64,000 bases of DNA, taken from NCBI RefSeq assembly GCF_030384885.1, contig NZ_CP128613.1; one strand, written 5' to 3'. Positions 1-39,885 of the stretch are shown here, one piece after another; positions within the stretch are counted from its first letter, which is position 1, and each line of letters begins with the position of its first letter. Under the pieces are notes generated by a model, which was not told the DNA's origin, ran no database searches, and saw only the letters and a list, made by a program, of their open reading frames with translations. A program made the position numbers and the translations under genes. Origin of the DNA: Escherichia coli. Its GTDB lineage: Bacteria > Pseudomonadota > Gammaproteobacteria > Enterobacterales > Enterobacteriaceae.

Positions 1-940
<940 letters not shown>

Positions 941-1082
941 CATCTTGTTATCAGGGCTATTTACGCCCTGATTGTCTTTTGTTACTTACACAATAATTCA
1001 TTATTTTTATCATTTATCCTATAGCATTCACGAGGATTATCGCTAAACTATGCGGACTTGGAAATTTCCGTCAGTTAGGGTA

Positions 1083-2063
1083 ATGATGAGAGTAGAAAAT
1101 AATAATGTTTCTGGGCAAAACCATGACCCGGAACAGATTGATTTGATTGATTTACTGGTCCAACTATGGCGTGGCAAGATGACTATCATCATTTCCGTCA
1201 TTGTGGCTATTGCCCTGGCTATTGGATATTTGGCAGTAGCGAAGGAGAAATGGACGTCAACAGCAATTATCACTCAGCCCGATGTGGGGCAAATTGCTGG
1301 CTATAACAATGCCATGAATGTTATCTATGGTCAGGCTGCACCGAAAGTATCGGATTTGCAGGAGACGTTAATTGGTCGCTTCAGTTCTGCCTTCTCTGCA
1401 TTAGCAGAAACGCTGGATAATCAGGAAGAACCAGAAAAACTTACCATCGAACCTTCTGTTAAGAACCAGCAATTACCATTGACTGTTTCTTATGTTGGGC
1501 AAACTGCAGAGGGCGCACAAATGAAGTTGGCCCAATACATTCAGCAAGTTGACGATAAAGTGAATCAAGAGCTAGAAAAGGATCTCAAGGACAACATTGC
1601 TCTGGGACGGAAAAACTTGCAGGACTCTTTAAGAACACAGGAAGTGGTTGCGCAGGAACAGAAAGATCTGCGTATCCGTCAAATTCAGGAAGCGTTGCAG
1701 TATGCGAATCAGGCGCAGGTGACAAAGCCACAGGTTCAGCAGACTGAAGATGTGACGCAAGATACGTTATTCCTTTTGGGTAGCGAAGCGCTGGAGTCGA
1801 TGATTAAGCACGAGGCGACCCGTCCGTTGGTGTTCTCGCCAAACTACTATCAGACTCGTCAAAACCTGCTGGATATCGAAAACTTAAAGGTTGATGATCT
1901 TGATATTCATGCTTACCGTTATGTGATGAAACCGACGTTACCTATTCGTCGCGATAGCCCGAAAAAGGCAATTACCTTGATTCTGGCGGTGCTGCTGGGC
2001 GGCATGGTTGGCGCGGGGATTGTGTTGGGGCGTAACGCTCTGCGTAATTACAACGCGAAGTAA
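1083..2063 (+). CDS. wzzB: O-antigen chain length determinant (Wzz/Cld)
   Basis: ORF 1050..2063; internal start MMRVENNN; N- and C-terminal hydrophobic segments with a coiled periplasmic domain, position between ugd and his operon. Confidence 0.92.
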   Translation: MMRVENNNVSGQNHDPEQIDLIDLLVQLWRGKMTIIISVIVAIALAIGYLAVAKEKWTSTAIITQPDVGQIAGYNNAMNVIYGQAAPKVSDLQETLIGRFSSAFSALAETLDNQEEPEKLTIEPSVKNQQLPLTVSYVGQTAEGAQMKLAQYIQQVDDKVNQELEKDLKDNIALGRKNLQDSLRTQEVVAQEQKDLRIRQIQEALQYANQAQVTKPQVQQTEDVTQDTLFLLGSEALESMIKHEATRPLVFSPNYYQTRQNLLDIENLKVDDLDIHAYRYVMKPTLPIRRDSPKKAITLILAVLLGGMVGAGIVLGRNALRNYNAK

Positions 2064-2086
2064 TCTTTTCGGTTTTAAAGAAAAAG

Positions 2087-2119
2087 GGCAGGGTGGTGAC
2101 ACCTTGCCCGTTTTTTTTG
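2087..2119 (+). terminator. Rho-independent terminator after wzzB
   Basis: GC stem gggcagggtg/caccttgccc followed by a run of 8 T. Confidence 0.65.
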
Positions 2120-2150
2120 CCGGATGCGACAACAACATCGCATCCGGTCA
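2120..2150. repeat. REP-like palindrome
   Basis: gccggatgcg...cgcatccggtc dyad typical of repetitive extragenic palindromes. Confidence 0.5.
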
Positions 2151-2159
2151 GCACGCAAC

Positions 2160-2764
2160 TCACTGATGCCGTTTACGCAGGTTCTCAATCACCGTTGTTA
2201 AATCCAGATCCTGATCCTGCAACAACACCAGCAGGTGATACATCAAATCAGACGCCTCGTTGGTTAGCTCAAAGCGATCATGTACTGTCGCGGCCAGTGC
2301 GGTTTCCACGCCTTCTTCGCCCACTTTCTGCGCAATGCGTTTGGTGCCGCTGGCATACAGTTTGGCAGTGTAAGAGGTTTCCGGGTCGGCAGATTTGCGT
2401 TCGGCGAGCAGTTGTTCCAGTTGATAAAGGAACAGCCACTGGTGAGCGGTGTCGCCGAAGCAGCTGCTGGTGCCTTTGTGGCAGGTCGGGCCGATGGGAT
2501 TCGCCAGCAACAGTAACGTGTCGTTGTCGCAGTCCGGCGTAATATTTACTACGTTGAGGAAATTGCCCGACGTTTCGCCTTTGGTCCACAGTCGCTGTTT
2601 AGTGCGCGAGAAGAAGGTGACTTTGCCACTTTCGATGGTTTTGTCTAAGGCTTCCGGGTTCATATAGCCCAGCATTAACACTTCGCCGGATACCGCGTGT
2701 TGCACAATCACCGGCAGCAGTCCGTCGGTTTTTTCCCAGTCCAGTTCGCGACGTTGTTGTTCTG

Positions 2765-2771
<7 letters not shown>
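2160..2771 (-). CDS. hisI: bifunctional phosphoribosyl-AMP cyclohydrolase / phosphoribosyl-ATP pyrophosphatase
   Basis: 203 aa ORF, his operon order and overlapping stop/start with hisF. Confidence 0.95.
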
Positions 2772-4849
<2,078 letters not shown>

Positions 4850-4850
<1 letters not shown>

Positions 4851-5916
4851 TACAGCACTCCTTTAGACGAGGGCAGGGTGTCGCCTTCCACGCGGATAGC
4901 TTGGCGCAGGGTGCGACCAAAAGCTTTGAACAGGCTCTCTACACGGTGGTGATCGTTTTTACCTTTGGTTTTCAGGTGCAGGGTCACGCCCATGGTGTAT
5001 GAAAGCGAACGGAAGAAGTGCTCGATCATCTCGGTGCTGAGATCGCCCACGCGCTGGTAGGTAAACTCGGCTTTATATTCCAGGTGCGGGCGACCAGAGA
5101 TATCCAGCGCGCAGCGGGCAAGGCATTCGTCCATCGGCAGCACAAAACCGAAGCGGCAAATACCGCGTTTGTCGCCAAGAGCTATTTTTAACGCTTCGCC
5201 CAGCGCCAGACCGGTATCTTCGACAGTGTGGTGATCGTCGATATAGAGGTCGCCTTTAACGTTGATTTCCATACGGAAGCCGCCGTGGGTAGCAATCTGA
5301 TCCAGCATGTGATCAAAGAAGCCAACGCCGGTGTTAATCTTGCTGCCACCCTCGCGATCCAGCCACACCTGAACGTCAATCTGCGTCTCTTTGGTGTTGC
5401 GCACTACATGGGCATAACGATCGCGTTTAGTGAGCTGTTCGCCAATCATCGGCCAGTTCAGAGTATCGCGGTCGTAACGTAAACCATTAATGCCCATGTT
5501 TTCGGCCAGTTGAATATCGGTCGCGCGATCGCCAATAACATAACTGTTGGCACGATCCATCGCTTGCTCAGCCAGATAACGCTCCACCAGTTTGACTTTC
5601 GGCTTACGGCAGTCGCACTCATCGGCGGGCAGGTGTGGACAAATCAGCACTTCATCAAACTGCACGCCTTGCGAGGTGAAGATCTGCAACATCAGGTTGT
5701 GCGGGCCATCAAAATCCGCCTGCGGGAAACTTTGTGTTCCAAGACCATCCTGATTAGTGATCATCACCAGCTTGTAGCCCGCTTTTTGCAGCTTCAGCAG
5801 TTCCGGGATCACGCCCGGTTCAAAGGCGAGTTTGTCAAAACGGTCCACCTGAAAATCACTCGGCGGTTCGCTAATCAGGGTTCCATCGCGATCGATAAAA
5901 AGATACTTCTGACTCA

Positions 5917-5917
<1 letters not shown>
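4850..5917 (-). CDS. hisB: bifunctional histidinol-phosphatase / imidazoleglycerol-phosphate dehydratase
   Basis: ORF 4850..5920, start [13 protein letters not shown] (HAD motif), operon context. Confidence 0.95.
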
Positions 5918-8288
<2,371 letters not shown>

Positions 8289-8293
8289 GGCGA

Positions 8294-9193
8294 TCACTCC
8301 ATCATCTTCTCAATCGGCAGGACCAGAATCGAACTGGCACCCAGCGCTTTCAGTTTTTCCATCGTTTCCCAGAACAGGGTTTCGCTACTGACCATGTGCA
8401 TCGCTACGCGCTGTTGATCACCCGCCAGCGGTAGAATGGTTGGGCGTTCGGCACCTGGCAGCAGAGCGATGACTTCATCCAGTCGGTCGGTTGGTGCGTG
8501 CATCATGATGTATTTTGATTCGCGCGCCTGGATCACGCCCTGAATACGCGTCAGCAGTTTGTCGATCAGTTGCTGTTTGGATTCTTCCATTTCGCCATCG
8601 CGTTGGATCAGGCAGGCTTTCGAGCGGTAGATAACTTCGACTTCGCGCAGGCCGTTAGCTTCCAGCGTGGCACCGGTGGAAACCAGATCGCAAATCGCAT
8701 CCGCCAGGCCGGCGCGCGGCGCAACTTCGACAGAACCGTTCAGTAAGCAGGATTTAAAAGAGATGCCTTTCTGATCGAGATAACGCTTGAGCAGGTGAGG
8801 ATAAGAGGTGGCGATACGTTTACCGTTTAAGGAGAGCGGGCCGTCCCAGGCTTCATCAACCGGCGTTGCCAGCGAAAGGCGGCAGCCTCCGAAATCCAGA
8901 CGACGCAGGGTAAAGTAGCGCGGATCTTCACCCTGGGCGCGGCGGTTAAGCAGCTCTTCTTCCAGCACGTTTTCGCCGATAATCCCAAGGTCAACCACGC
9001 CGTCCATTACCAGACCGGGAATGTCGTCGTCACGTACGCGCAGAATATCAATCGGCATGTTTTCTGCCATCGCGATCAGGCGCTGGGTGTGAAGATTAAT
9101 TTTAATGCCGCAGCGCGCCAGTAATTCGCGTGAGTCATCACTTAAACGGCCGGATTTCTGCATAGCTATGCGTAAACGAGTGTTGTCTGTCAT
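8294..9193 (-). CDS. hisG: ATP phosphoribosyltransferase
   Basis: ORF 8294..9232, start [15 protein letters not shown], first gene of his operon. Confidence 0.95.
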
Positions 9194-9241
9194 TTTCTTA
9201 TTCCTCTTTAAACCTGTCTGAACCGTTAACAACCGCGCAAT

Positions 9242-9274
9242 AAAAAAGCCCCCGGAAGGTGATCTTCCGGGGGC
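9242..9274 (-). terminator. his operon attenuator hairpin
   Basis: On the minus strand gcccccggaag...cttccgggggc stem followed by U-run, between hisL and hisG. Confidence 0.8.
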
Positions 9275-9338
9275 TTTCTCATGCGTTCATGCACCACTGG
9301 AAGATCTGAATGTCTTCCAGCACACATCGCCTGAAAGA

Positions 9339-9389
9339 CTAGTCAGGATGATGGTGATGATGGTGGTGTTTAAATTGAACGCGTGTCAT
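9339..9389 (-). CDS. hisL: his operon leader peptide (MTRVQFKHHHHHHHPD)
   Basis: Minus-strand 16-codon ORF with seven consecutive His codons, directly upstream of attenuator. Confidence 0.93.
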   Translation of the reverse strand: MTRVQFKHHHHHHHPD

Positions 9390-9614
9390 AAAAGTCTCTG
9401 TGAATGTTTATTCAACTGATGTCTTTTAACCTAAACCACTTTCACGTTAGAAAGCAAGGGCTTTTTTATATATTTTATGGCGATGGATTTGTTTAATGAA
9501 TGAGCGGGGAAAGGAGAGGGCCAGGAGTGGCTACGTTAAAAAAGTAATCGTGAAAATATGTCTTTAAAACCCTCAAGAACATTGTGTTCTGTAACTAAAG
9601 TGGGCTTGGTTCCT

Positions 9615-9712
9615 GCCGGATGCGGCGTGAATGCCTTATCTGGTCTACAAATGTTGCCTAAATTCAATATATTGATGTTTTTGTAGGACTGATAAGCGGA
9701 GCGCATCAGGCA
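9615..9712. repeat. pair of REP elements (BIME-like)
   Basis: gccggatgcggcgtgaatgccttatctggtctaca and inverted copy tgtaggactgataagcggagcgcatcaggca in intergenic space. Confidence 0.55.
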
Positions 9713-9815
9713 ATTGTATATTTGCTAACAGTTTCGATTTCATTCATAGAATGAATTGTCAGTTTTGATACGCTAGCGTAGCCTTATAGATCTAAGGTGT
9801 ATCAGGAGATAACGG

Positions 9816-10640
9816 ATGAAAAAGGTCGCAATTGTCGGGTTAGGGTGGTTAGGCATGCCGCTGGCGATGTCACTTTCAGCGCGAGGCTGGCAAGTCACCG
9901 GGAGTAAAACCACACAAGATGGCGTCGAAGCGGCCCGAATGAGTGGCATTGATAGTTATCTGCTTCGTATGGAACCTGAGTTAGTTTGCGATTCTGACGA
10001 TCTGGATGCCCTGATGGATGCTGATGCGCTGGTCATCACGCTTCCGGCACGTCGTAGCGGCCCCGGCGATGAGTTCTATTTACAAGCGGTACAAGAGTTA
10101 GTGGATAGTGCGCTGGCTCATCATATTCCCCGCATTATTTTTACCAGCTCAACGTCTGTCTATGGCGACGCACAAGGCACCGTTAAAGAAACCACCCCGC
10201 GTAATCCGGTGACCAACAGTGGACGAGTATTAAAAGAACTTGAAGACTGGCTGCACAATTTACCCGGTACTTCAGTCGATATTCTGCGTCTTGCGGGCCT
10301 GGTCGGGCCGGAACGTCATCCTGGTCGCTTTTTTGCCGGAAAAACCGCACCTGATGGTGAACATGGTGTCAATTTAGTCCATTTAGAAGATGTTATTGGC
10401 GCTATCACCCTGTTGTTACAGGCACCTAAAGGCGGACACATCTATAATATATGTGCGCCAGCTCACCCTGCGCGTAATGTTTTCTATCCGCAAATGGCCC
10501 GTTTACTGGGGCTTGAACCTCCGCAGTTCAGAAATAGTCTGGACAGCGGCAAAGGTAAGATTATTGATGGCAGCCGGATTTGTAATGAACTGGGATTTGA
10601 ATACCAGTATCCCGATCCGCTGGTAATGCCGCTGGAGTAA
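9816..10640 (+). CDS. yeeZ: NAD-dependent epimerase/dehydratase family protein
   Basis: 274 aa ORF, N-terminal Rossmann GxxGxxG (VAIVGLGWLG), synteny. Confidence 0.88.
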   Translation: MKKVAIVGLGWLGMPLAMSLSARGWQVTGSKTTQDGVEAARMSGIDSYLLRMEPELVCDSDDLDALMDADALVITLPARRSGPGDEFYLQAVQELVDSALAHHIPRIIFTSSTSVYGDAQGTVKETTPRNPVTNSGRVLKELEDWLHNLPGTSVDILRLAGLVGPERHPGRFFAGKTAPDGEHGVNLVHLEDVIGAITLLLQAPKGGHIYNICAPAHPARNVFYPQMARLLGLEPPQFRNSLDSGKGKIIDGSRICNELGFEYQYPDPLVMPLE

Positions 10641-10685
10641 ACGATCACGCCAGCAGGACGCCGCATGCACTGCAAGGGGGCGTGT

Positions 10686-11615
10686 ATGAAACCACTGCTG
10701 GATGTATTGATGATCCTCGATGCCTTAGAAAAAGAAGGCAGTTTTGCGGCGGCGTCGGCCAAACTCTATAAGACGCCGTCCGCACTGAGTTACACCGTTC
10801 ACAAGCTGGAAAGCGACCTTAACATTCAATTGCTTGATCGTAGCGGTCACCGCGCAAAATTCACCCGCACCGGAAAAATGTTATTAGAGAAGGGGCGGGA
10901 AGTTCTGCATACCGTGCGAGAACTGGAAAAGCAGGCGATAAAACTGCATGAAGGCTGGGAAAACGAGCTGGTGATTGGCGTGGACGACACCTTCCCTTTT
11001 TCTCTTCTCGCGCCACTCATTGAAGCTTTTTATCAACATCATAGCGTGACGCGCCTGAAGTTTATCAATGGCGTGCTCGGTGGTTCCTGGGATGCCCTGA
11101 CTCAGGGACGAGCGGATATTATTGTTGGTGCGATGCATGAGCCACCATCTTCCAGTGAGTTTGGTTTTTCACGGTTGGGCGATCTTGAACAAGTCTTTGC
11201 GGTCGCGCCCCATCATCCGTTAGCCCAGGAAGAAGAACCGTTAAACCGTCGTATCATTAAGCGATATCGGGCGATTGTGGTAGGGGATACTGCGCAGGCA
11301 GGCGCTTCTACGGCCTCGCAACTTCTCGACGAACAAGAAGCCATTACCGTTTTCGATTTTAAAACCAAGCTGGAGCTGCAAATTAGCGGCCTTGGCTGCG
11401 GCTATTTACCCCGTTATCTGGCGCAACGTTTTCTCGATAGTGGCGCGTTAATCGAGAAGAAAGTGGTCGCCCAAACTCTCTTTGAACCTGTCTGGATTGG
11501 CTGGAACGAACAGACCGCAGGACTTGCCAGCGCCTGGTGGCGAGACGAGATTTTAGCAAATAGTGCGATCGCCGGTGTTTATACAAAATCTGATGACGGA
11601 AAATCAGCCATTTAA
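10686..11615 (+). CDS. yeeY: LysR-family transcriptional regulator
   Basis: ORF 10665..11615, internal start MKPLLDVL, N-terminal HTH plus LysR substrate domain. Confidence 0.88.
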   Translation: MKPLLDVLMILDALEKEGSFAAASAKLYKTPSALSYTVHKLESDLNIQLLDRSGHRAKFTRTGKMLLEKGREVLHTVRELEKQAIKLHEGWENELVIGVDDTFPFSLLAPLIEAFYQHHSVTRLKFINGVLGGSWDALTQGRADIIVGAMHEPPSSSEFGFSRLGDLEQVFAVAPHHPLAQEEEPLNRRIIKRYRAIVVGDTAQAGASTASQLLDEQEAITVFDFKTKLELQISGLGCGYLPRYLAQRFLDSGALIEKKVVAQTLFEPVWIGWNEQTAGLASAWWRDEILANSAIAGVYTKSDDGKSAI

Positions 11616-25135: not shown

Positions 25136-25165
25136 AAAAAGCCCGCTATAAAAGCGGGCTTTTCA
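25136..25165. terminator. hairpin terminator between cbl and asnU
   Basis: aaaaagcccgctataaaagcgggctttt. Confidence 0.6.
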
Positions 25166-25171
25166 GAAATT

Positions 25172-25247
25172 TGGCTCCTCTGACTGGACTCGAACCAGTG
25201 ACATACGGATTAACAGTCCGCCGTTCTACCGACTGAACTACAGAGGA
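25172..25247 (-). tRNA. asnU: tRNA-Asn(GUU)
   Basis: 76-nt exact tRNA-Asn copy. Confidence 0.97.
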
Positions 25248-25407
25248 ATCGCTGTTGAGGCACATCTTAACGGCGAAAAATTTTTTGTCAAACCCGATTT
25301 TTAAATTCCTCAACTGTTTGCCGTTTCTATCAACAGTTTGTTGCATTTGCAGACAATTTGTCGGCAAAAATCTTTGCAGCTTTGCTGATTCTCCCTCATC
25401 ATTTGAA

Positions 25408-26895
25408 ATGTGGTTTCACTTTTTGCAATTAAGGTCGGCTTTGAATATCTCCTCTGCTTTACGCCAGGTTGTTCACGGCACTCGCTGGCACGCCAAACGC
25501 AAGAGTTACAAAGTGTTGTTCTGGCGCGAGATAACCCCGCTTGCTGTTCCTATCTTCATGGAGAACGCCTGTGTCCTGTTGATGGGTGTCCTGAGCACTT
25601 TTCTGGTCAGCTGGCTGGGAAAAGATGCGATGGCCGGCGTGGGATTGGCGGACAGCTTCAATATGGTCATTATGGCTTTTTTTGCAGCTATCGATCTTGG
25701 TACTACTGTCGTTGTGGCATTTAGTCTCGGTAAGCGGGATCGACGACGAGCGAGGGTGGCGACGCGACAGTCATTGGTGATCATGACGTTGTTTGCCGTA
25801 CTGTTGGCAACGCTTATTCATCATTTTGGCGAACAAATTATTGATTTCGTCGCGGGTGATGCCACGACAGAAGTTAAAGCACTGGCGTTGACTTATCTGG
25901 AGCTGACGGTACTCAGTTATCCAGCAGCTGCCATCACTTTGATTGGTAGCGGGGCACTTCGTGGTGCAGGGAATACGAAAATACCGCTACTGATTAACGG
26001 TAGCCTGAATATTCTTAATATTATTATTAGCGGCATATTGATTTACGGCCTTTTCTCCTGGCCGGGACTGGGATTTGTCGGGGCTGGGTTGGGGTTAACC
26101 ATTTCTCGTTATATTGGCGCAGTGGCAATTTTGTGGGTGCTGGCGATTGGTTTTAATCCTGCGCTAAGGATTTCGTTAAAGAGCTATTTTAAACCGCTGA
26201 ATTTTAGCATTATCTGGGAAGTCATGGGGATTGGTATTCCAGCGAGTGTCGAATCAGTGTTATTTACCAGTGGTCGGTTATTAACCCAAATGTTCGTTGC
26301 CGGGATGGGGACCAGTGTTATTGCCGGGAATTTTATCGCGTTTTCAATTGCGGCTCTTATCAACTTACCCGGAAGTGCGCTCGGCTCTGCTTCTACGATC
26401 ATTACAGGCCGAAGGTTGGGGGTAGGGCAGATAGCGCAAGCAGAGATTCAGTTGCGGCATGTGTTCTGGCTGTCCACTCTTGGATTAACGGCCATCGCCT
26501 GGCTAACGGCTCCCTTTGCTGGGGTTATGGCATCGTTTTACACCCAGGATCCACAGGTTAAACATGTCGTTGTGATTCTGATTTGGCTAAATGCTTTATT
26601 TATGCCTATTTGGTCTGCCTCATGGGTGCTACCCGCTGGATTTAAGGGTGCTCGCGATGCCCGTTACGCCATGTGGGTTTCTATGTTGAGCATGTGGGGT
26701 TGCCGGGTTGTAGTCGGTTATGTGCTGGGAATCATGCTTGGCTGGGGTGTGGTTGGTGTCTGGATGGGAATGTTTGCCGACTGGGCTGTGCGGGCCGTGC
26801 TGTTTTACTGGCGCATGGTTACTGGACGTTGGCTGTGGAAATACCCTAGATCTGAGCCGCAAAAGTGTGAAAAAAAGCCAGTTGTGTTGAAATAA
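25408..26895 (+). CDS. yeeO: MATE-family efflux transporter
   Basis: ORF 25255..26895 with internal start MWFHFLQLRS giving 495 aa; 12-TM MATE topology. Confidence 0.9.
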   Translation: MWFHFLQLRSALNISSALRQVVHGTRWHAKRKSYKVLFWREITPLAVPIFMENACVLLMGVLSTFLVSWLGKDAMAGVGLADSFNMVIMAFFAAIDLGTTVVVAFSLGKRDRRRARVATRQSLVIMTLFAVLLATLIHHFGEQIIDFVAGDATTEVKALALTYLELTVLSYPAAAITLIGSGALRGAGNTKIPLLINGSLNILNIIISGILIYGLFSWPGLGFVGAGLGLTISRYIGAVAILWVLAIGFNPALRISLKSYFKPLNFSIIWEVMGIGIPASVESVLFTSGRLLTQMFVAGMGTSVIAGNFIAFSIAALINLPGSALGSASTIITGRRLGVGQIAQAEIQLRHVFWLSTLGLTAIAWLTAPFAGVMASFYTQDPQVKHVVVILIWLNALFMPIWSASWVLPAGFKGARDARYAMWVSMLSMWGCRVVVGYVLGIMLGWGVVGVWMGMFADWAVRAVLFYWRMVTGRWLWKYPRSEPQKCEKKPVVLK

Positions 26896-26995
26896 ACGAC
26901 AAAGTGCAGATTATTTCAGCAAACGATTTCAAATTTAAAAAACAGGCTTTGACATTGTGGATGGGCGTCGCTAATATTCGCCTCGTTCTCACGAT

Positions 26996-28579: not shown

Positions 28580-30034
28580 TTACCGGAACGGCGGTTCATT
28601 AAAGGTTCGTAATTTACGTGAATGCAGTCGGTCGCCTTCTGCGCGCAGCAAATCGATCGCACGAATGCCAATTTGCAGGTGTTCGGAAATAGCGCCTTCA
28701 TAAAAACGGTTAGCCTGACCGGGAAGTTTAATCTCACCATGCAACGGTTTATCTGAAACACACAGTAGTGTCCCGTATGGCACGCGGAAACGATATCCTT
28801 GCGCGGCAATGGTTGCACTTTCCATATCAATTGCCACGGCACGGCTTAAGTTAAAACGAAGTGCAGAAGCTGAGTAACGTAATTCCCAGTTCCTGTCATC
28901 TGTGGTTACCACAGTGCCAGTACGTAGCCGCTGTTTAACTTCCTCTCCGGGCCTGCCGCTGACTAACTTGGTAGCGTCATAAAGCGCACGTTGCACTTCA
29001 GCAATGCTCGGAATAGGAATATCGGGCGGCAGTACCGCATCAAGAACGTGGTCATCGCGTAAATAAGCGTGTGCAAGTACATAATCTCCAATGGCCTGGC
29101 TTTCACGTAAGCCACCACAGTGACCAATCATCAACCAGACATCCGGGCGCAGCACCGCCAGATGATCGCAGATGGTTTTAGCATTTGACGGTCCCACGCC
29201 AATATTCACCAGAGTAATACCCTGACCATCGGCGGTAATTAAATGCCATGCAGGCATCTGATGTTTTTTCCATGCAAGGTCGGAAATGGCTTCTTCTGGC
29301 GCTTCGGTTTCGGCGGTGATCCAGTTCCCGCCAGCACAAGAAAGGGCAATGTAGGGACTATCAGGGTCGAGGATCTGGCTGCATCCCCAACGAACGAATT
29401 CATCCACATAACGTGTGTAGTTGGTAAACAAGACGAACGGCTGAAAATGTTCAACTGGCGTACCGGTATAATGGCGCAACCGTGCGAGGGAAAAATCAAC
29501 CCGGCGCGCATCAAAATGAGATAGCGGGGAGAATTCCGTTGGATGATAAATGCCGTCTGCAGTTTCATCGCCAATTTGCGCCAGTTCTGTTGTCGGGAAG
29601 TAGCGAGTTAATCCAGCGCTCATTGAGCGATCAAGTGTCAATTCAGAGCCATCGATGACATAAGGATAAGGGATTTCATGTTGCGAGGGTTGCACAGAAA
29701 TATGCGCACCATAATCCTGATAAAGCAACGTTAGTTGCTCATTCAGGTACGAACGAAAGAGAGTAGGGCGAGTAATCGTGGTGGTGTAGCTGCCTGCGTG
29801 AGTAAAACGACCAAATGCGCGCGTTTTGGGGGGATTTGTTGTGCTACCGTCCCAGGTTACGGTCAGTTATGGATAGACAAAAAGACCTTCTTTACGGGCA
29901 TTTTCATCAGGTAATTCGCCACTTTTAATATAGTTGCCAATGGCATTGCGTAAAGCGACTACAGATTGCTCATACAGCGCGTCGAGTTTTTCCAGTGCCT
30001 GAGCTGGGGTCAGACCGGAGCCCTTATTATTCAT
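28580..30034 (-). pseudogene. amn: AMP nucleosidase interrupted by an in-frame TAA at codon 56
   Basis: ORFs 29867..30190 (ends ...DENARKEGLFVYP*) and 28580..29728 are in the same frame; the interval between translates without further stops as Amn-like sequence. Confidence 0.85.
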
Positions 30035-30135
30035 GTGTGTCTCCTGTTCCATACAATTACCGCACTTCCGATAGTATGTCACAGGAATGTGAAACAAAAG
30101 TGTAAGGCGAAGATCGGATGATCTTCGCCTGACTA

Positions 30136-33207: not shown

Positions 33208-36200
33208 TCAAATGTTTTTATAACATGTCACATGAGAAAATCCAAGTTTTGCCATTACGCTTTGCTCACCTGTTGCCAGGGAAATTTCGTATTGTTCATT
33301 GGAGTTTGCGGGACTAGATGACCAATACATATCTGAATAAAAATCGGCTTCATTCATGTAATGCCCCATATCTCCCCATTCACTGTACAATGTCCCTATA
33401 CCTCGGGAACGACCCTGGCTTAAAAGGCTTGCACGGGGAAGCATGTAGCCATTGCTACTGCAAAAATTTTCAGCAAGGCTGTATATCATGAAAGAATCGC
33501 CGGAGTTTACCCACCAACTCTTCACCCGGATTTCGTATATATAGCCAGGGCCTCCTGATTTTGGCGTCGCTGTAATCGTTACCCAACTGCTTCCGACATT
33601 TTTAAATGTCACTTTACCGGTAGCGTCAACATCGACCCAGGAGGCAGAGCTTGAAAACTCATAATCAGCCGCCGTTTTGCCCGGGGAAAAGTTGTCATTA
33701 TTCAACTGATAATAAGCCCCAGTGAACCCCTGCGAAGGGAATGTAGTTGTCGGTAGGTTAGCACCATTGACTAACACGGTACCGCTCATTATTTTGTCTT
33801 CTGCGCGAGTGAATTGTATTGTGGTACTCAGACCCGCTTGATGAACACCATTCAATACAGGGATCAGCGTTGCGATACCCTCTCCGCCTCCTATAACAGT
33901 GGCTTTGTAATCACCGTTGATATTTTGACTGTAATCAATTGCGCTAATTTTCACATAGGGCACGTTAGTACCTGATTGCACAAATTCCATCCCTTCAGAA
34001 ACTTTGATCGGATTGCCTGATATATCGTGCAAAACAAGATGTAGCTCAGCACTATCGGTATAGTCCCCTTTTAGTGATGACCGATTGTTCTTAAGGACGG
34101 ACTGCGAGGCGTCTGCCGGGCCTGCCACCAGCGTTATATTAGCTGTTTGCGTTGCACCTGTGCTCGTTCCTGCACTAACAGTTACGCTCCCAGTTCGCGC
34201 ACTTTTCAAGGTGGTTGTCGCAAATCCGTGTTGATCGGTCACCGCTGTTAATGACCCTAATGTGGCAGAGCCACTTTTTAATGCGAAGTTCACATTGACG
34301 CCTTCGACTTGGTTACCACTGCCGTCCTCAACAGTAGCCTTCAGCGTGCTGATATCGCTGTCGTTGGCAGTGATAGTTGACGGATCAGCGCTCAGGCTGA
34401 CCACATGGGCTGTGCTTTGGTTGCCAGTAACTTTCACGATTGTCTGCGCCTGAATAATTACGCCACTAGTGATAGATGCTGTAACCGTATACGTACCGAC
34501 TTTATTGCTGGTCAGAACGACTTGTGCCTCCCCGGAAGGATTGGTTTTCATTGTTTCGCTACTTAACGTTGCATCTTCTGGCGTTACGCTAAAGGTAACG
34601 AGTTCATTGTTCACTGGGGCCCCATTTGGATTGGTTAGCCTTACTGTCAGAGTTGAACCTAATGGGTCATTGATGCCGATAAGTGGACTTGATGCTGTGA
34701 GTGTCAGTTTTAAATCGATTACCACCAGGTCCTTCTCATAAGAGGAGCCATTCGCCAGGGATGCTTGCACAGTATACGAACCGTATCTATTGGGCGTCAT
34801 GGTGACCTCGGCTATACCCTGTGTATTCGTAGAGACCGTATCCTGACTAATGACCATGTTAAAAAATGACGGCTCTGCACTGAATGTCACAAGCTGTTCA
34901 GAAACTGGATTGCCAAACTGGTCGTCGACGTGCGCTTTAACCGCCAGGGGGGTTGCGACCATAACCTGACCTTCAGGCATTTCCAGACTGGTGATCGTCG
35001 CAGAATCAGCATCTGCTTTGACAGTCAACGTTTGCATGATGGTATCTGTAGGTGCATTTGCCAGATTAGCCACAACAATTTTCGTCCCTGCAATGGTGCT
35101 TGTTACAAGAATTTCTGCCTTACCCTGAGCATCTGTTTCAGCGGTGGTGTTACTCAGCGTGGCGGATAAGCCGCGGAAATTGACCTTGATGCCTTCTAAT
35201 GGATTGTCATAAGCGTCAGTGACACTTGCCGTCAGGGTCGCACCCTCGGTTGTGCTGGCGATTAATGAGCTTGATGATGCGGTAAAATCAGCCAGTTTAG
35301 CGGTACTCGCATCGGCAAGCAAAGTCACCGGCCTCGTATCACTGACACCATAACTGTCCACGCTGACCGTCACGGGATAGGTGCCGGACTTCGTACCGCT
35401 TAGTGTAACTTCCGCCTTGCCGTTGATGTCAGTAATGGCGGAACCGCCTTCTCCAAGAGTGAAGCTTGCACTCACATCTGCCGGTAGTGTGAATGTCACC
35501 GGCTCATTGGCTAACGGGTTGCCGTGTCCATCAGTCACCGTTGCCTGAAGTTGGGTCATCCCAACGTTATTGGCGATAAAGTTGTTCTCGGTAACGTTCA
35601 GATTAACCTGCGCTGTGAGCGTATCCGCAATAAAGTTCACCACCAACTGCTCACTCTTACCGCCAGCCATCGCTGCTGTCACGGTATGTGCTCCTGCTTT
35701 TGTACCTTTCAGTGTGACTTTCGCTTTGCCTTCAGCATCAGTAACCGCTTTACCGCCATCGCTCAGCGTGAAGTTTGCCCTCACATCTTCCGGGAGAGTA
35801 AATGTTACTTCAGTGTTGGCTATCGCATTGCCCTCTGTATCTGCGACTGTTGCTGTTAATGTCGTGAGATCGTTATTGTCGGCAATCACCGGATCTTTTG
35901 AGGCTCCCAGCGTGATTTCAGCATTCGCCACGTTCGGCACATAGGTCACTGTTTGTTGTATCGAATCGCCATTGTCGAGCGTTGCCGTCACTTGATAAAC
36001 CCCGGCTTTTGTAGCGGTAAAGCTTGCGTAAAAATGGCCGTAGGAGTTGGTAGTATATATAGCGTTATTACTGGGGGTCACACCTTCACTTGGCGAAACG
36101 CTGATGGTCACCTTATGTTGGGGTACACCGTTTCCGTAATTATCGTTTACCACAACATACAGATCGGTCGTGTTGCCTGCGGAGACTGTATCAGTAAGTG

Positions 36201-37251
36201 CTTGTAACAAGGTGATATGTGCCGTAGACGCATCAGCGTTGACATTAATTGATGTGCTAAGCGTGGAGCTACCATTTTCCAGACTGGCCTCAACGGTATC
36301 CGGCCTCCCTCCTGATTCTGCCGAGGAACGGGTATTGGTATAAGTGACGGTTGCCTTACCCTGTTCGTTCGTTACGGCTTGGCCGCCATTCGTCATTTCA
36401 GCAGAGTTTGTACTGCTGGTGAAACTCACAGTTACACCTTTCACCGGAAAGCTATTATTATCAACGACTGTCGCGGTGATGACGCTGCCGGTGCTATTCT
36501 GCGGGGTACCAGCGATTATGCTGTTTGGGACAGACGTCAACCCAATAATTTTTGCCGCAGCTGTGTCGCCAATAAAGTGCACAGTTTTGTGGTCGCTGGC
36601 ACCATTATTAGCAAGTGATACAGTGACCGTCTGCTCACCAAAGGCAACGCCTACGAGAGTGGCCTGCGCGATGCCAGACTCATTGGTATTACTCTCCCCT
36701 GGGGTGAGGGTGAGGCCTGAAGAGGCTGAGCTGAATGTTACCGGAAGATTGTTCACCTCATTGTCGAACTGGTCTTTAACCGTTGCAGTTAACGTTGCAC
36801 TATCGACGCCATTACCCGTGATCTCATCTTTTGACATCTGCAGGGCAACCTGAGCCGAGGTTTTGTCTGCCACAAATGTTACCGGCTGCGATTCACTGGC
36901 ATTGTTATTAATCAGCGTCGCGGTAACTGTATGCGTGCCCGCTTTTTTACCTTTGAGGGTGACATGCGCTTCCCCATTGGCTTGGGTGACGGTAATACCG
37001 TTATTTTCAAGGGTAAAGTTTGCCGCGACGTCTTGTGGCATGGTGAAATTCACCGCTATCCCCGCCACCGGATGATTCGACGGATCTTTCACTGTAGCTG
37101 TCAGCTGCACACTGTCGCTGTTATTCGTCACCACCTGGTGAGCAGGAATGTTCAGCGTGAGCCGCGCGTTGCTGGCATCGGGAGCAATATTGACTGTCTT
37201 CGAATCGCTATTGCCGTTAGGCAGAGTGGCTTCGGCTGTATGAACACCCAA
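33208..37251 (-). pseudogene. yeeJ: inverse-autotransporter adhesin, 5'-truncated (Big-domain array and C-terminal lectin-like domain retained)
   Basis: 1347 aa ORF of repeated bacterial Ig-like modules (VTLKGxKAGTHTVTA...) ending ...CYKNI; no signal peptide, LysM or beta-barrel region upstream; ORF abuts hypE fragment. Confidence 0.8.
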
Positions 37252-37286
37252 TACCGCGCCTTTTAGGGTAACTTCAGCAAACCGCC

Positions 37287-37535
37287 ATGGCAGCTAATAT
37301 GCTGGGTGTTGACGTCATTAATCTCGCTAATGAAGGTTGTTTGTGCCTGTTTGTTGAACCTGAGTATGCTCAGAAGGTACTACATTTGCTGCAGGAGCAT
37401 CCTGTCGGCAAGCACGCGACAATTATCGGCGAGATCACCGCTGTCTCGGGTACTGAAGTCTATATGATTGAAGCTGATGGAACACACACAGAAGTCGAGG
37501 AATTATATGGCGCAGAATTACCCAGACTCTGTTGA
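37287..37535 (+). pseudogene. HypE-like C-terminal fragment (ends with conserved PRxC)
   Basis: 82 aa ORF ...HPVGKHATIIGEI...ELPRLC matching HypE C-terminus including terminal Cys; N-terminal about 250 aa absent. Confidence 0.7.
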
Positions 37536-39885
37536 GCTTCACGAGACGCCGGAAACCCGGCGTTACCGCATCTGTGGGGTCGTTCAGGGCGTTGGATTTC
37601 GTCCCTTTGTTCACCGACTGGCCCGCACCTATGGTGCCACCGGCTGGGTGTTAAACGATTCAGAAGGCGTGTTGCTTGAGCTGCAGGCATCCGGCACGGT
37701 TATTGCCAGAATCATGGACAAACTGGTGACCGAGGCACCACCACTGGCAAAAATCATCAGTACGCAGGAAGTTAGCCCAACGGATACCAGAGCGCACTAT
37801 GAAACGTTCAGCATCCGTAAAAGCCGCGATCATACCAGCATGGACACGATTATCCCGCCAGATACCAACGTCTGCAGCGATTGCCTGCGCGAGATAAGCG
37901 ATCCTGATAATCATCGTTATCGTTACGCTTTCACCAATTGCACCAATTGTGGGCCGCGCTATTCCATTATTCTTGGTATGCCTTACGATCGTGCCCAGAG
38001 CACTATGCGTAAATTCCCTTTATGTCCAACCTGTGAGCGTGAATACAACGATATTGAGGATCGACGCTATCATGCCCAGCCCAATGCCTGCCCAGTTTGC
38101 GGCCCACAGTTGCAACTTACCGATCGACAGGGCACATCCGTTCACACAGATGATATTGTCAAATTTGCCATTACGAAACTAAAAGAAGGCGGAATTCTTG
38201 CAATAAAGAGCCTTGGTGGCTTTCATCTCGTGGCCGATGCTTGCAATGAGAATGCTGTCAATGAACTTCGGCAACGCAAGCGAAGAGACGCCAAACCTTT
38301 TGCAGTGATGGTCGCGGATGTGGAAAGCGCGTCGCGTATTGCTTTCATCCCCCCCTGTAATCACAAATTGCTGGAAAGCCCGCAGCGTCCCATTGTCTTG
38401 TTGTATAAGCGCAACGTCCTGCTGGCGAGTACCGTTGCGCCACATAATCCGAACATCGGTGTAATGCTGCCTTCAACGCCGCTTCAGCATTTATTGCTGG
38501 AAGACCCGTCTCTGCCGATCCTGATTATGACCAGCGGTAATATTTCCGGTCATCCGATCGTCTTTGACAACGACATGGCAATTAAGCAACTCGGGAAAAT
38601 CGCGGATTACTTCATTCTGAATAATCGCGATATTCATACGCGTGTTGACGATTCGGTGGTCCGCACGGTGTTTCGCAACGACGCCATTACCTCGCAGCTA
38701 TCGTTTTTGCGCCGCTCCCGCGGTTACGCGCCATACCCTATTCATCTACCTTACGCAGTGGATTCCGTTATCGCGCTCGGGGCGGAGCTAAAAAACACGA
38801 TCAGCATCGGCAAAGGAAAACAGGTTTTTCTGAGCCAGCATATTGGCGATCTTAAGAATAACGTGACTTTTAAATCACATATCGAATGTATTGATCATCT
38901 TCAAAACCTGCTGAACGTGAAGGCAAATGTCGTGGCCTGCGATTTGCATCCCTCTTTCCGCTCTACCCGGCATGCGCTGGAGAATTTAGAGCATCAGGTT
39001 GTTCAGGTTCAACACCATCACGCGCATATGGCATCCTGCATGGCGGAAAATGGCCTGTCAGGTACTACTCTAGGCGTAATTTTTGACGGTACAGGATATG
39101 GCACCGACGGCACCATTTGGGGCGGTGAGTTTCTCGTTGGTGATTTCGAAAAATTCGAGCGTGCAGGATGCTTGCGTTCAATGACCCTGCCCGGAGGCGA
39201 TCGGGCAGTTAAAGAGCCGCTGCGCGTCGGCATCTCCTTACTGGTGGAAACCTTCGGCGAAGATATCAGTACGCTCGCAGTACCAGGCTTGCAGGCGCTC
39301 CAGCCTCAGCAGCGCGATATATTCAGTAAAATGGCGACCAGAAAAATCAACACCACCACGACCAGCAGCATGGGCAGACTATTTGACGGCATCGCCGCGC
39401 TGATGGGCGTTTGCACTCAGGTGGAGTACGAAGCCCAGGCGGCCATTGAACTGGAAGCGCTGCTGCAGTGTAAACTTCATATGACGGCTCCGTTCAGCTA
39501 CATCATTGCCGATGTCGAGAATAAGCTCGAGGTGGATTATCGCCCGATGATAAGGGAACTGGTGCAATGCTTCAGCCAGCCCGGTTTTGATATGGCCGAA
39601 CTAAGTCGGCGCTTTCACTCTACCATCGTCGACATGATTTGCGAGGTCTGTAAACGTCTGGTGGCACGCTCAGGCACGCAACAAATTGTCCTGAGCGGCG
39701 GCGTGTTCTGCAATGAATTCATCCTCGTTAATTCTCTTAACAGTCTGGAGTCTTGTGGATTCCGGCCTTACAGCCATCAGTTAGTTCCGACTAACGATGG
39801 TGGTATTTCATTGGGGCAAGTGGTTATTGCTACCGCATACACTCGCGCAACGCGCAATAAAAATCTGGAGAGAGAAAATGCATAG
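37507..39885 (+). CDS. HypF-like carbamoyltransferase (acylphosphatase, two Zn-fingers, YrdC, Kae1 domains)
   Basis: ORF 37468..39885; RBS gagga before ATG 37507; acylphosphatase motif VQGVGFRPFV, two CxxC...CxxC pairs, YrdC and Kae1-like regions. Confidence 0.85.
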   Translation: MAQNYPDSVELHETPETRRYRICGVVQGVGFRPFVHRLARTYGATGWVLNDSEGVLLELQASGTVIARIMDKLVTEAPPLAKIISTQEVSPTDTRAHYETFSIRKSRDHTSMDTIIPPDTNVCSDCLREISDPDNHRYRYAFTNCTNCGPRYSIILGMPYDRAQSTMRKFPLCPTCEREYNDIEDRRYHAQPNACPVCGPQLQLTDRQGTSVHTDDIVKFAITKLKEGGILAIKSLGGFHLVADACNENAVNELRQRKRRDAKPFAVMVADVESASRIAFIPPCNHKLLESPQRPIVLLYKRNVLLASTVAPHNPNIGVMLPSTPLQHLLLEDPSLPILIMTSGNISGHPIVFDNDMAIKQLGKIADYFILNNRDIHTRVDDSVVRTVFRNDAITSQLSFLRRSRGYAPYPIHLPYAVDSVIALGAELKNTISIGKGKQVFLSQHIGDLKNNVTFKSHIECIDHLQNLLNVKANVVACDLHPSFRSTRHALENLEHQVVQVQHHHAHMASCMAENGLSGTTLGVIFDGTGYGTDGTIWGGEFLVGDFEKFERAGCLRSMTLPGGDRAVKEPLRVGISLLVETFGEDISTLAVPGLQALQPQQRDIFSKMATRKINTTTTSSMGRLFDGIAALMGVCTQVEYEAQAAIELEALLQCKLHMTAPFSYIIADVENKLEVDYRPMIRELVQCFSQPGFDMAELSRRFHSTIVDMICEVCKRLVARSGTQQIVLSGGVFCNEFILVNSLNSLESCGFRPYSHQLVPTNDGGISLGQVVIATAYTRATRNKNLERENA

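What the first reader, a model, noticed from the sequence alone, without database searches (positions are those of the whole stretch)
29860..29872. In-frame nonsense codon in AMP nucleosidase (amn)
Amn-like translation runs continuously from the MNNKGSGLTPAQ start through to the C-terminus in one frame, except for a single TAA at codon 56 (…LFVYP*). The two ORF-track fragments are exactly in frame. This is a point nonsense mutation, not a frameshift, and probably inactivates amn unless translation reinitiates at a downstream start.
Basis: seen in the sequence. Interest (0 to 1): 0.4.

Follow-up and report, generated by a model that had tools for sequence, protein, structure and literature searches.

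The report
Single-base stop codon inactivating amn
One base change turns serine codon 56 of the well-known E. coli AMP nucleosidase gene (amn) into a stop codon, almost certainly knocking out this dispensable enzyme; it is an ordinary, strain-private loss-of-function mutation.

Summary
Its only in-frame interruption is a TAA at codon 56 (window 29867-29869).

The nearest intact allele, from E. coli 2013C-4282, differs from the window's 1,455-nt coding sequence by exactly one base. That base is C->A at nt 167 (TCA Ser -> TAA), window 29868. There is no frameshift, and promoter, ribosome-binding site and flanks are unchanged.

The allele looks private. It is absent from all 5,426 complete E. coli genomes, from GTDB species representatives, from JGI metagenome contigs, and from 30 other loci with truncated amn calls.

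It is also young. Over 35.7 kb the window differs from 2013C-4282 by two substitutions and one ~7.1-kb deletion.

The stop falls in the N-terminal domain (Pfam 12-167), far ahead of the catalytic domain (266-431). The nearest in-frame restart codon is 141 nt downstream, and no restart codon has a Shine-Dalgarno match above background. A null allele is therefore the best reading.

amn is dispensable, and it is broken in other strains by other lesions (IS1 insertion, ±1 slips in a C6 run).

The finding is ordinary and of low interest. Only the reads could exclude a base-call error.

The parts
28580..30034 (-). amn (AMP nucleosidase) reading frame: 484 codons plus stop, interrupted once, so a nonsense-type pseudogene
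   Evidence: Translation. One base differs from the intact allele WP_001060255.1. Full-length match to PDB 1T8R. Pfam AMNp_N 12-167 and PNP_UDP_1 266-431.
29867..29869 (-). Premature ochre codon TAA at codon 56. The mutated base is 29868: T on the + strand where relatives have G, i.e. C->A on the coding strand, TCA Ser -> TAA.
   Evidence: The ancestral state TCA is seen in both closest relatives. No complete E. coli genome has the identical 61-mer.
29870..30034 (-). The only part still translatable from the native start: a 55-residue N-terminal fragment (MNNKGS...GLFVYP) covering about a quarter of the N-terminal domain
30041..30045 (-). Native Shine-Dalgarno AGGAG, 6 nt upstream of the ATG, unchanged from relatives
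   Evidence: Sequence. Anti-SD duplex energy -7.4 kcal/mol. The 1,651-bp region is identical to 2013C-4282 except for base 29868.
28580..29866 (-). Codons 57-484, now untranslated from the native start. They hold the rest of the N-terminal domain and the entire PNP_UDP_1 catalytic domain, with no secondary lesions.
29621..29728 (-). Stretch holding the in-frame candidate restart codons: TTG103 (29726-29728), GTG114 (29693-29695), TTG132 (29639-29641), ATG138 (29621-29623). None has a recognisable ribosome-binding site.

Best explanation
A recent spontaneous G:C->T:A transversion (window 29868) changed Ser56 (TCA) of amn to an ochre stop (TAA) in this E. coli lineage. Ribosomes starting at the unchanged native start site release a 55-residue peptide, and the remaining 429 codons are not translated. 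Those codons include most of the N-terminal domain and the whole catalytic phosphorylase-fold domain. The strain therefore lacks AMP nucleosidase (AMP + H2O -> adenine + ribose-5-phosphate). The gene is a very young pseudogene with no secondary decay. Shown here: the single-base change, its derived state, its absence elsewhere, the domain consequences, and the lack of an internal ribosome-binding site. Inferred: loss of enzyme activity; destabilisation and Rho-dependent termination of the untranslated mRNA; and the physiological effect, namely slower AMP degradation and a somewhat larger adenylate/ATP pool, as reported for amn knockouts.
For: The window's CDS has one base difference from the closest intact allele and no indel. 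Both closest relatives carry TCA, so the TAA is derived. 0 of 5,426 complete E. coli genomes have the identical 61-mer. There were 0 hits for the 41-mer in GTDB species representatives and in JGI metagenome contigs. The allele was absent from 30 loci with N-terminally truncated amn calls. The surrounding 35.7 kb differs from 2013C-4282 by only 2 substitutions and no 1-bp indels, so the assembly is clean and the mutation is recent. The stop lies at residue 56, inside AMNp_N (12-167) and upstream of PNP_UDP_1 (266-431). The nearest in-frame restart is 141 nt downstream, and the internal starts have background-level SD pairing against -7.4 kcal/mol for the native start. The tRNAs in the window are wild-type Asn(GTT) x4 and Ser(CGA), so no suppressor is present locally. 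The gene is dispensable and is lost recurrently. IS1A splits amn in strain 100117, where it is annotated as a pseudogene. ±1 indels at the C6 run and other indels occur in other assemblies. A 1-bp insertion in amn fixed in a long-term stationary-phase lineage (PMC7858067). A knockout is viable, with about 30% more ATP and better cold tolerance (Morrison & Shain 2008, as cited in PMC3042610).
Against: No reads are available, so a base-call or consensus error cannot be formally excluded. The allele was found in no second, independent sequence, which is what a private mutation predicts but also what an error predicts. Only the window was examined, so a suppressor tRNA elsewhere in the genome is not excluded. 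Catalytic-domain-only homologues exist (PDB 1YBF, 268 aa; PMC9584410), so a truncated product is not structurally absurd.
Confidence: 0.85

Rival explanations
1. The TAA is a sequencing or consensus error, and the real genome has TCA and an intact amn.
For: The allele occurs in no other sequence searched. The CDS is otherwise identical to an intact allele.
Against: The site (CCATAACTG) is not in a homopolymer or repeat. The flanking 35.7 kb shows no single-base indels and only one other substitution against the nearest relative. Error-prone assemblies instead show ±1 slips at the amn C6 run and split neighbouring genes. Substitution errors are rare in finished assemblies (general knowledge).
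Confidence: 0.09
2. The stop is real, but an N-terminally truncated, possibly deregulated, catalytic-domain protein is made from an internal start (TTG103, GTG114, TTG132 or ATG138) and keeps some AMP nucleosidase activity.
For: The downstream 382-codon ORF is intact and contains the whole PNP_UDP_1 domain. Natural homologues lacking the N-terminal domain exist (1YBF; PMC9584410).
Against: The nearest restart codon is 141 nt from the stop. Anti-SD pairing at all internal starts is at background level. Each candidate start would leave a partial N-terminal domain fragment (65 or 30 residues of the 154-position profile), which is likely to misfold. Untranslated mRNA downstream of an early stop is normally subject to Rho termination and decay (general knowledge).
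Confidence: 0.03
3. The stop is real but is read through, either by an ochre suppressor tRNA elsewhere in the genome or by context-dependent readthrough, giving useful amounts of full-length enzyme.
For: The stop follows a proline codon (CCA-TAA-C), and C-terminal proline is known to slow termination (general knowledge). The rest of the genome was not inspected.
Against: UAA is recognised by both release factors and is the least leaky stop in E. coli (general knowledge). No recoding mechanism in E. coli uses UAA. The five tRNAs in the window have wild-type anticodons. Ochre suppressors are rare and costly in natural isolates (general knowledge).
Confidence: 0.03

Closest known systems
E. coli K-12 amn (AMP nucleosidase, EC 3.2.2.4; PDB 1T8R/1T8S/1T8W/1T8Y)
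   Same: The protein is the same length (484 codons) and nearly identical in sequence, with Ser at position 56. It has the same two-domain architecture and the same shiA-amn-yeeN neighbourhood.
   Different: The window's copy has TAA instead of TCA at codon 56 and so cannot make the full-length protein.
Engineered or laboratory amn loss-of-function alleles (the Morrison & Shain 2008 knockout; a 1-bp insertion fixed in long-term stationary phase, PMC7858067)
   Same: These are loss-of-function alleles of the same non-essential gene. The expected phenotype is the same: viable cells with an altered adenylate pool.
   Different: Those are a deletion and a frameshift made or selected in laboratory K-12-type strains. 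This one is a point nonsense mutation in a natural-lineage genome, and its phenotype has not been measured.
Other naturally disrupted amn alleles in E. coli assemblies
   Same: They show that amn is broken repeatedly in E. coli. Examples are IS1A insertion in strain 100117 (annotated pseudogene), IS1 at about nt 90, ±1 indels at the C6 run at nt 202 (codon 68), and indels at codons 116-133.
   Different: None of them carries S56*. Most are indel or IS lesions, and some are probably long-read homopolymer errors. The window's C6 run (29828-29833) is intact.

Membership tests
AMP nucleosidase (Amn, EC 3.2.2.4) | N-terminal Amn-specific domain (Pfam PF10423 AMNp_N) | tested here: met
   The one-base-different intact allele scores 173.9 bits at residues 12-167. 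The window encodes the same residues, apart from the stop at 56.
AMP nucleosidase (Amn, EC 3.2.2.4) | C-terminal nucleoside phosphorylase-fold catalytic domain (PF01048 PNP_UDP_1) | tested here: met
   Scores 76.9-77.9 bits at residues 266-431, and is present and undamaged in the window's downstream ORF.
AMP nucleosidase (Amn, EC 3.2.2.4) | Orthology to the structurally and biochemically characterised E. coli enzyme | tested here: met
   Aligns 1-484 to 1-484 of PDB 1T8R at 1118 bits. Synteny with shiA and yeeN is conserved.
AMP nucleosidase (Amn, EC 3.2.2.4) | Uninterrupted reading frame able to produce the two-domain protein | tested here: not met
   In-frame TAA at codon 56. The locus is therefore an amn pseudogene, not a functional amn gene.
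AMP nucleosidase (Amn, EC 3.2.2.4) | AMP hydrolysis to adenine and ribose-5-phosphate | not testable with these tools
   This needs an enzyme assay on extracts of the strain.
Nonsense-type (point-mutation) pseudogene | Premature in-frame stop where intact orthologues have a sense codon, with no frameshift | tested here: met
   TCA->TAA is the only difference from the closest allele. The sense codon is present in both nearest relatives. No complete E. coli genome has the identical 61-mer.
Nonsense-type (point-mutation) pseudogene | No rescue by reinitiation, suppression or recoding | tested here: inconclusive
   There is no internal SD and the first restart codon is 141 nt away. The window holds no suppressor tRNA. 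The rest of the genome and actual protein output could not be examined.
Nonsense-type (point-mutation) pseudogene | The mutation is real at read level | not testable with these tools
   Reads are unavailable. Indirect support comes from a clean surrounding assembly with no 1-bp indels in 35.7 kb.

The most novel reading that the evidence does not exclude
The amn knockout is adaptive rather than neutral decay. Loss of AMP nucleosidase would have been selected in this lineage because it conserves the adenylate pool and raises ATP, as in the cold-tolerant knockout and the stationary-phase-evolved frameshift. It may belong to a wider pattern of lineage-specific gene loss, together with the nearby 7-kb deletion, and of G:C->T:A mutations. 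Alternatively, a catalytic-domain-only Amn could be expressed from an internal start as an unregulated enzyme.
Probability: 0.1. Interest if true: 0.3.

Novelty: new member of a known kind. Interest (0 to 1): 0.1.

Why it matters
It matters little outside strain-level annotation. For annotation, amn in this genome should be marked as a pseudogene (S56*, ochre), not split into two "AMP nucleosidase" genes or given an N-terminally truncated CDS. Many public records make that mistake: hundreds of contigs carry 382-, 371- or 347-aa "AMP nucleosidase" calls. For physiology, the strain is predicted to be a natural Δamn. Its AMP catabolism and purine salvage should be altered, and its ATP modestly raised. 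The allele could serve as a lineage marker. It also adds one data point showing that amn is dispensable and repeatedly lost in E. coli.

Tried and rejected
1. I looked for the same allele elsewhere and found none.
- The 61-mer matched no complete E. coli genome exactly.
- The 41-mer had no hits in GTDB species-representative genomes or in JGI metagenome contigs.
- An exact look-up of the 55-aa N-terminal product returned a single hit, which is a contig-end artefact: the contig ends at codon 55 with no stop.
- The 107-aa upstream-extended ORF is not in the protein collection.

2. The C-terminal products of 382, 371 and 347 aa are in the collection, on hundreds of contigs. This first suggested a shared lineage allele. 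Inspection of 30 such loci showed different lesions: ±1 at the C6 run at nt 202, IS1, and other indels. None had S56*. I rejected the idea that they are the same allele.

3. I first suspected a Shigella origin, meaning pseudogene-rich genome decay. I dropped this because the window is 99.99% identical over 35.7 kb to the E. coli strain 2013C-4282. I did not scan the window for IS elements, so that point is untested.

4. Recoding by selenocysteine or pyrrolysine is not applicable to UAA.

5. A frameshift is rejected, because there is no indel.

6. A polar effect on yeeN is considered unlikely. There is a 341-nt gap and a good promoter-like site (10/12, with extended -10 TG) at 28334-28305 upstream of yeeN. 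This was not tested.

7. The Morrison & Shain 2008 paper could not be opened. It is cited second-hand through PMC3042610.

Full report
**Observation**

The region holds amn on the minus strand. The ATG is at window 30034, preceded by AGGAG at 30041-30045. Translating 30034->28577 gives one continuous Amn frame of 484 codons ending in TAA-TAA. It has one internal stop after ...KEGLFVYP, at codon 56. The ORF list shows the two pieces in the same frame. One is the N-terminal piece ending at 29867. The other is a 382-codon ORF (28580-29728) that opens only at the first TTG after the stop.

**What changed**

Megablast of the 1,651-bp locus against 5,426 complete E. coli genomes found a full-length match in 5,408 of them. 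None was identical, and the best two were 99.9%. The amn CDS of the best hit is E. coli 2013C-4282, annotated as intact AMP nucleosidase WP_001060255.1. It differs from the window's CDS by exactly one base in 1,455. That base is nt 167, TCA (Ser56) -> TAA, window 29868. There is no indel. The 5' region, ribosome-binding site and 3' flank are identical.

**How widespread and how old**

- A 61-mer centred on the stop matched 5,020 genomes, all with at least one mismatch. No complete E. coli genome carries the allele.
- The 41-mer containing the TAA has no exact match in the GTDB species-representative genomes or in JGI metagenome contigs.
- The exact 55-aa N-terminal product was found once, but only because a short contig ends at that point (L004).
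- N-terminally truncated "AMP nucleosidase" products with the window's exact C-terminal sequence (382, 371 and 347 aa) exist on hundreds of contigs.
- The 30 such loci I retrieved all have other lesions, and none has S56*. The lesions are ±1 at a C6 run at nt 202 (codon 68), IS1 at about nt 90, and various indels at codons 116-133.

The window is 99.99% identical to 2013C-4282 across 8144-43883 (35.7 kb). It differs by two substitutions, 22738 and 29868, and one deletion of about 7.1 kb. The second-closest genome (2020CK-00188) agrees with 2013C-4282 at both substituted sites, so both window alleles are derived. Both are G->T on the plus strand. The nonsense mutation is therefore recent and, in the data reachable here, private to this genome. 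The lack of any secondary lesion in the remaining 428 codons fits that.

**Real or error**

Reads are not available, so this cannot be settled here. Three things argue for a real mutation:

- The site is not in a homopolymer or repeat.
- The surrounding 35.7 kb has no single-base indels against its nearest relative.
- The error-prone C6 run of amn (29828-29833) is intact, whereas it is slipped in many long-read assemblies.

I put the error hypothesis at about 9%.

**Consequence**

Pfam places the Amn-specific N-terminal domain at residues 12-167 and the phosphorylase-fold catalytic domain at 266-431. The protein aligns end to end with the solved E. coli enzyme 1T8R, which has Ser at position 56. 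[quoted passage not shown]

A stop at codon 56 leaves a 55-residue peptide and removes everything catalytic. The in-frame restart codons are TTG103, GTG114, TTG132 and ATG138, and the nearest is 141 nt past the stop. Their anti-Shine-Dalgarno pairing energies are -1.9, -2.8, -2.1 and +0.6 kcal/mol. These lie within the background for all codons of the gene (-1.6 +/- 2.3), against -7.4 for the native start. Reinitiation is therefore unlikely. Each restart would also leave a broken N-terminal domain fused to the catalytic domain.

UAA is not used for recoding in E. coli, and the five tRNAs in the window have wild-type anticodons. A suppressor elsewhere in the genome cannot be excluded. From general knowledge, the long untranslated 3' portion should be prone to Rho-dependent termination and decay. 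The fragment ends in Tyr-Pro, and this may make termination slow and lead to SsrA tagging. Both points are inferences.

yeeN lies 341 nt downstream and has its own strong promoter-like site at 28334-28305. I therefore expect no important polar effect.

**Expected physiology**

Amn hydrolyses AMP to adenine and ribose-5-phosphate and is the bacterial route for AMP degradation (PMC9584410). An E. coli amn knockout is viable, has about 30% more ATP and is more cold tolerant (Morrison & Shain 2008, cited in PMC3042610). I could not open the original paper. A 1-bp insertion in amn fixed in one lineage of a 1,200-day stationary-phase culture (PMC7858067). Natural strains with IS1A-split amn are annotated as pseudogenes, for example strain 100117. 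Loss of amn is thus tolerated, recurrent and possibly sometimes advantageous. Nothing here shows selection in this lineage.

**Comparison and novelty**

The locus is an orthologue of E. coli amn by sequence, domains and synteny. It fails the one requirement for a functional member, an open reading frame. It is a nonsense-type pseudogene of a well-characterised, non-essential gene. The specific allele (S56*, ochre) was not found anywhere else, but the kind of event is entirely ordinary. The practical value lies in annotation: mark it as a pseudogene, and do not call a truncated "AMP nucleosidase". It may also serve as a lineage marker.

**Verdict**

- Best explanation, at about 0.85: a real, recent null mutation.
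- Rivals: a base-call error (about 0.09), a truncated active product (about 0.03), and readthrough or suppression (about 0.03).
- Interest is 0.1.

Noticed in passing
window 37279-37283 (junction); affected ORFs 33208-37251 (-) and 37468-39885 (+): The window lacks about 7.1 kb that both closest relatives have (7,155 bp in 2013C-4282, 7,049 bp in 2020CK-00188). The deletion removes the 5' ~3.9 kb and promoter of the 2,662-aa Ig-like adhesin gene (yeeJ-like), a LysR regulator, a cysteine hydrolase and most of a hypE-like gene. It leaves a 1,347-codon C-terminal adhesin remnant. This is a second lineage-specific loss-of-function event 7 kb from amn.
   Followed up: partly
window 22738: This is the only other substitution against 2013C-4282 in 35.7 kb. 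It is intergenic, between the ldtA stop (22707) and the 3' end of tRNA-Asn (22763). Like the amn mutation it is G->T on the + strand and derived. Two of two private SNPs being G:C->T:A is the oxidative-damage or mutY/mutM-type signature, but n=2 proves nothing.
   Followed up: partly
window 29828-29833 (amn codons 67-69, CCCCCC run, minus strand): This C6 homopolymer is the commonest site of amn disruption in other public assemblies. 16 of the 30 retrieved loci have a ±1 indel at the run (nt 202), and two more have a +1 insertion a few bases downstream (nt 208, nt 228). Many of these are in assemblies whose neighbouring genes are also split, so a good share are probably sequencing errors. The run is intact in the window.
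   Followed up: partly
window 25141-26967 (yeeO and flanks): There is a cluster of 26 differences from 2020CK-00188, but the stretch is identical to 2013C-4282. This is a short recombination patch over yeeO between otherwise near-identical genomes.
   Followed up: partly
window 43884-64000: Sequence directly downstream of tRNA-Ser(CGA) (43794-43883) is absent from both closest relatives at this site. It is about 95% identical to chromosomal islands in other E. coli that carry a MobQ relaxase, a PilV shufflon adhesin, a SIR2-family protein and DUF6387. It is probably an integrative mobilisable island at serU.
   Followed up: no
window 1-11054: The his operon is only 98.9% identical to 2020CK-00188, and the wzzB/ugd flank (window 11-2129) only 87%. 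The rest of the window is more than 99.9% identical. This indicates O-antigen-region recombination and a different serogroup.
   Followed up: no
public protein records (cluster): Hundreds of contigs carry 382-, 371- or 347-aa proteins named 'AMP nucleosidase' that are really the downstream halves of disrupted amn genes. This is a systematic annotation artefact.
   Followed up: partly
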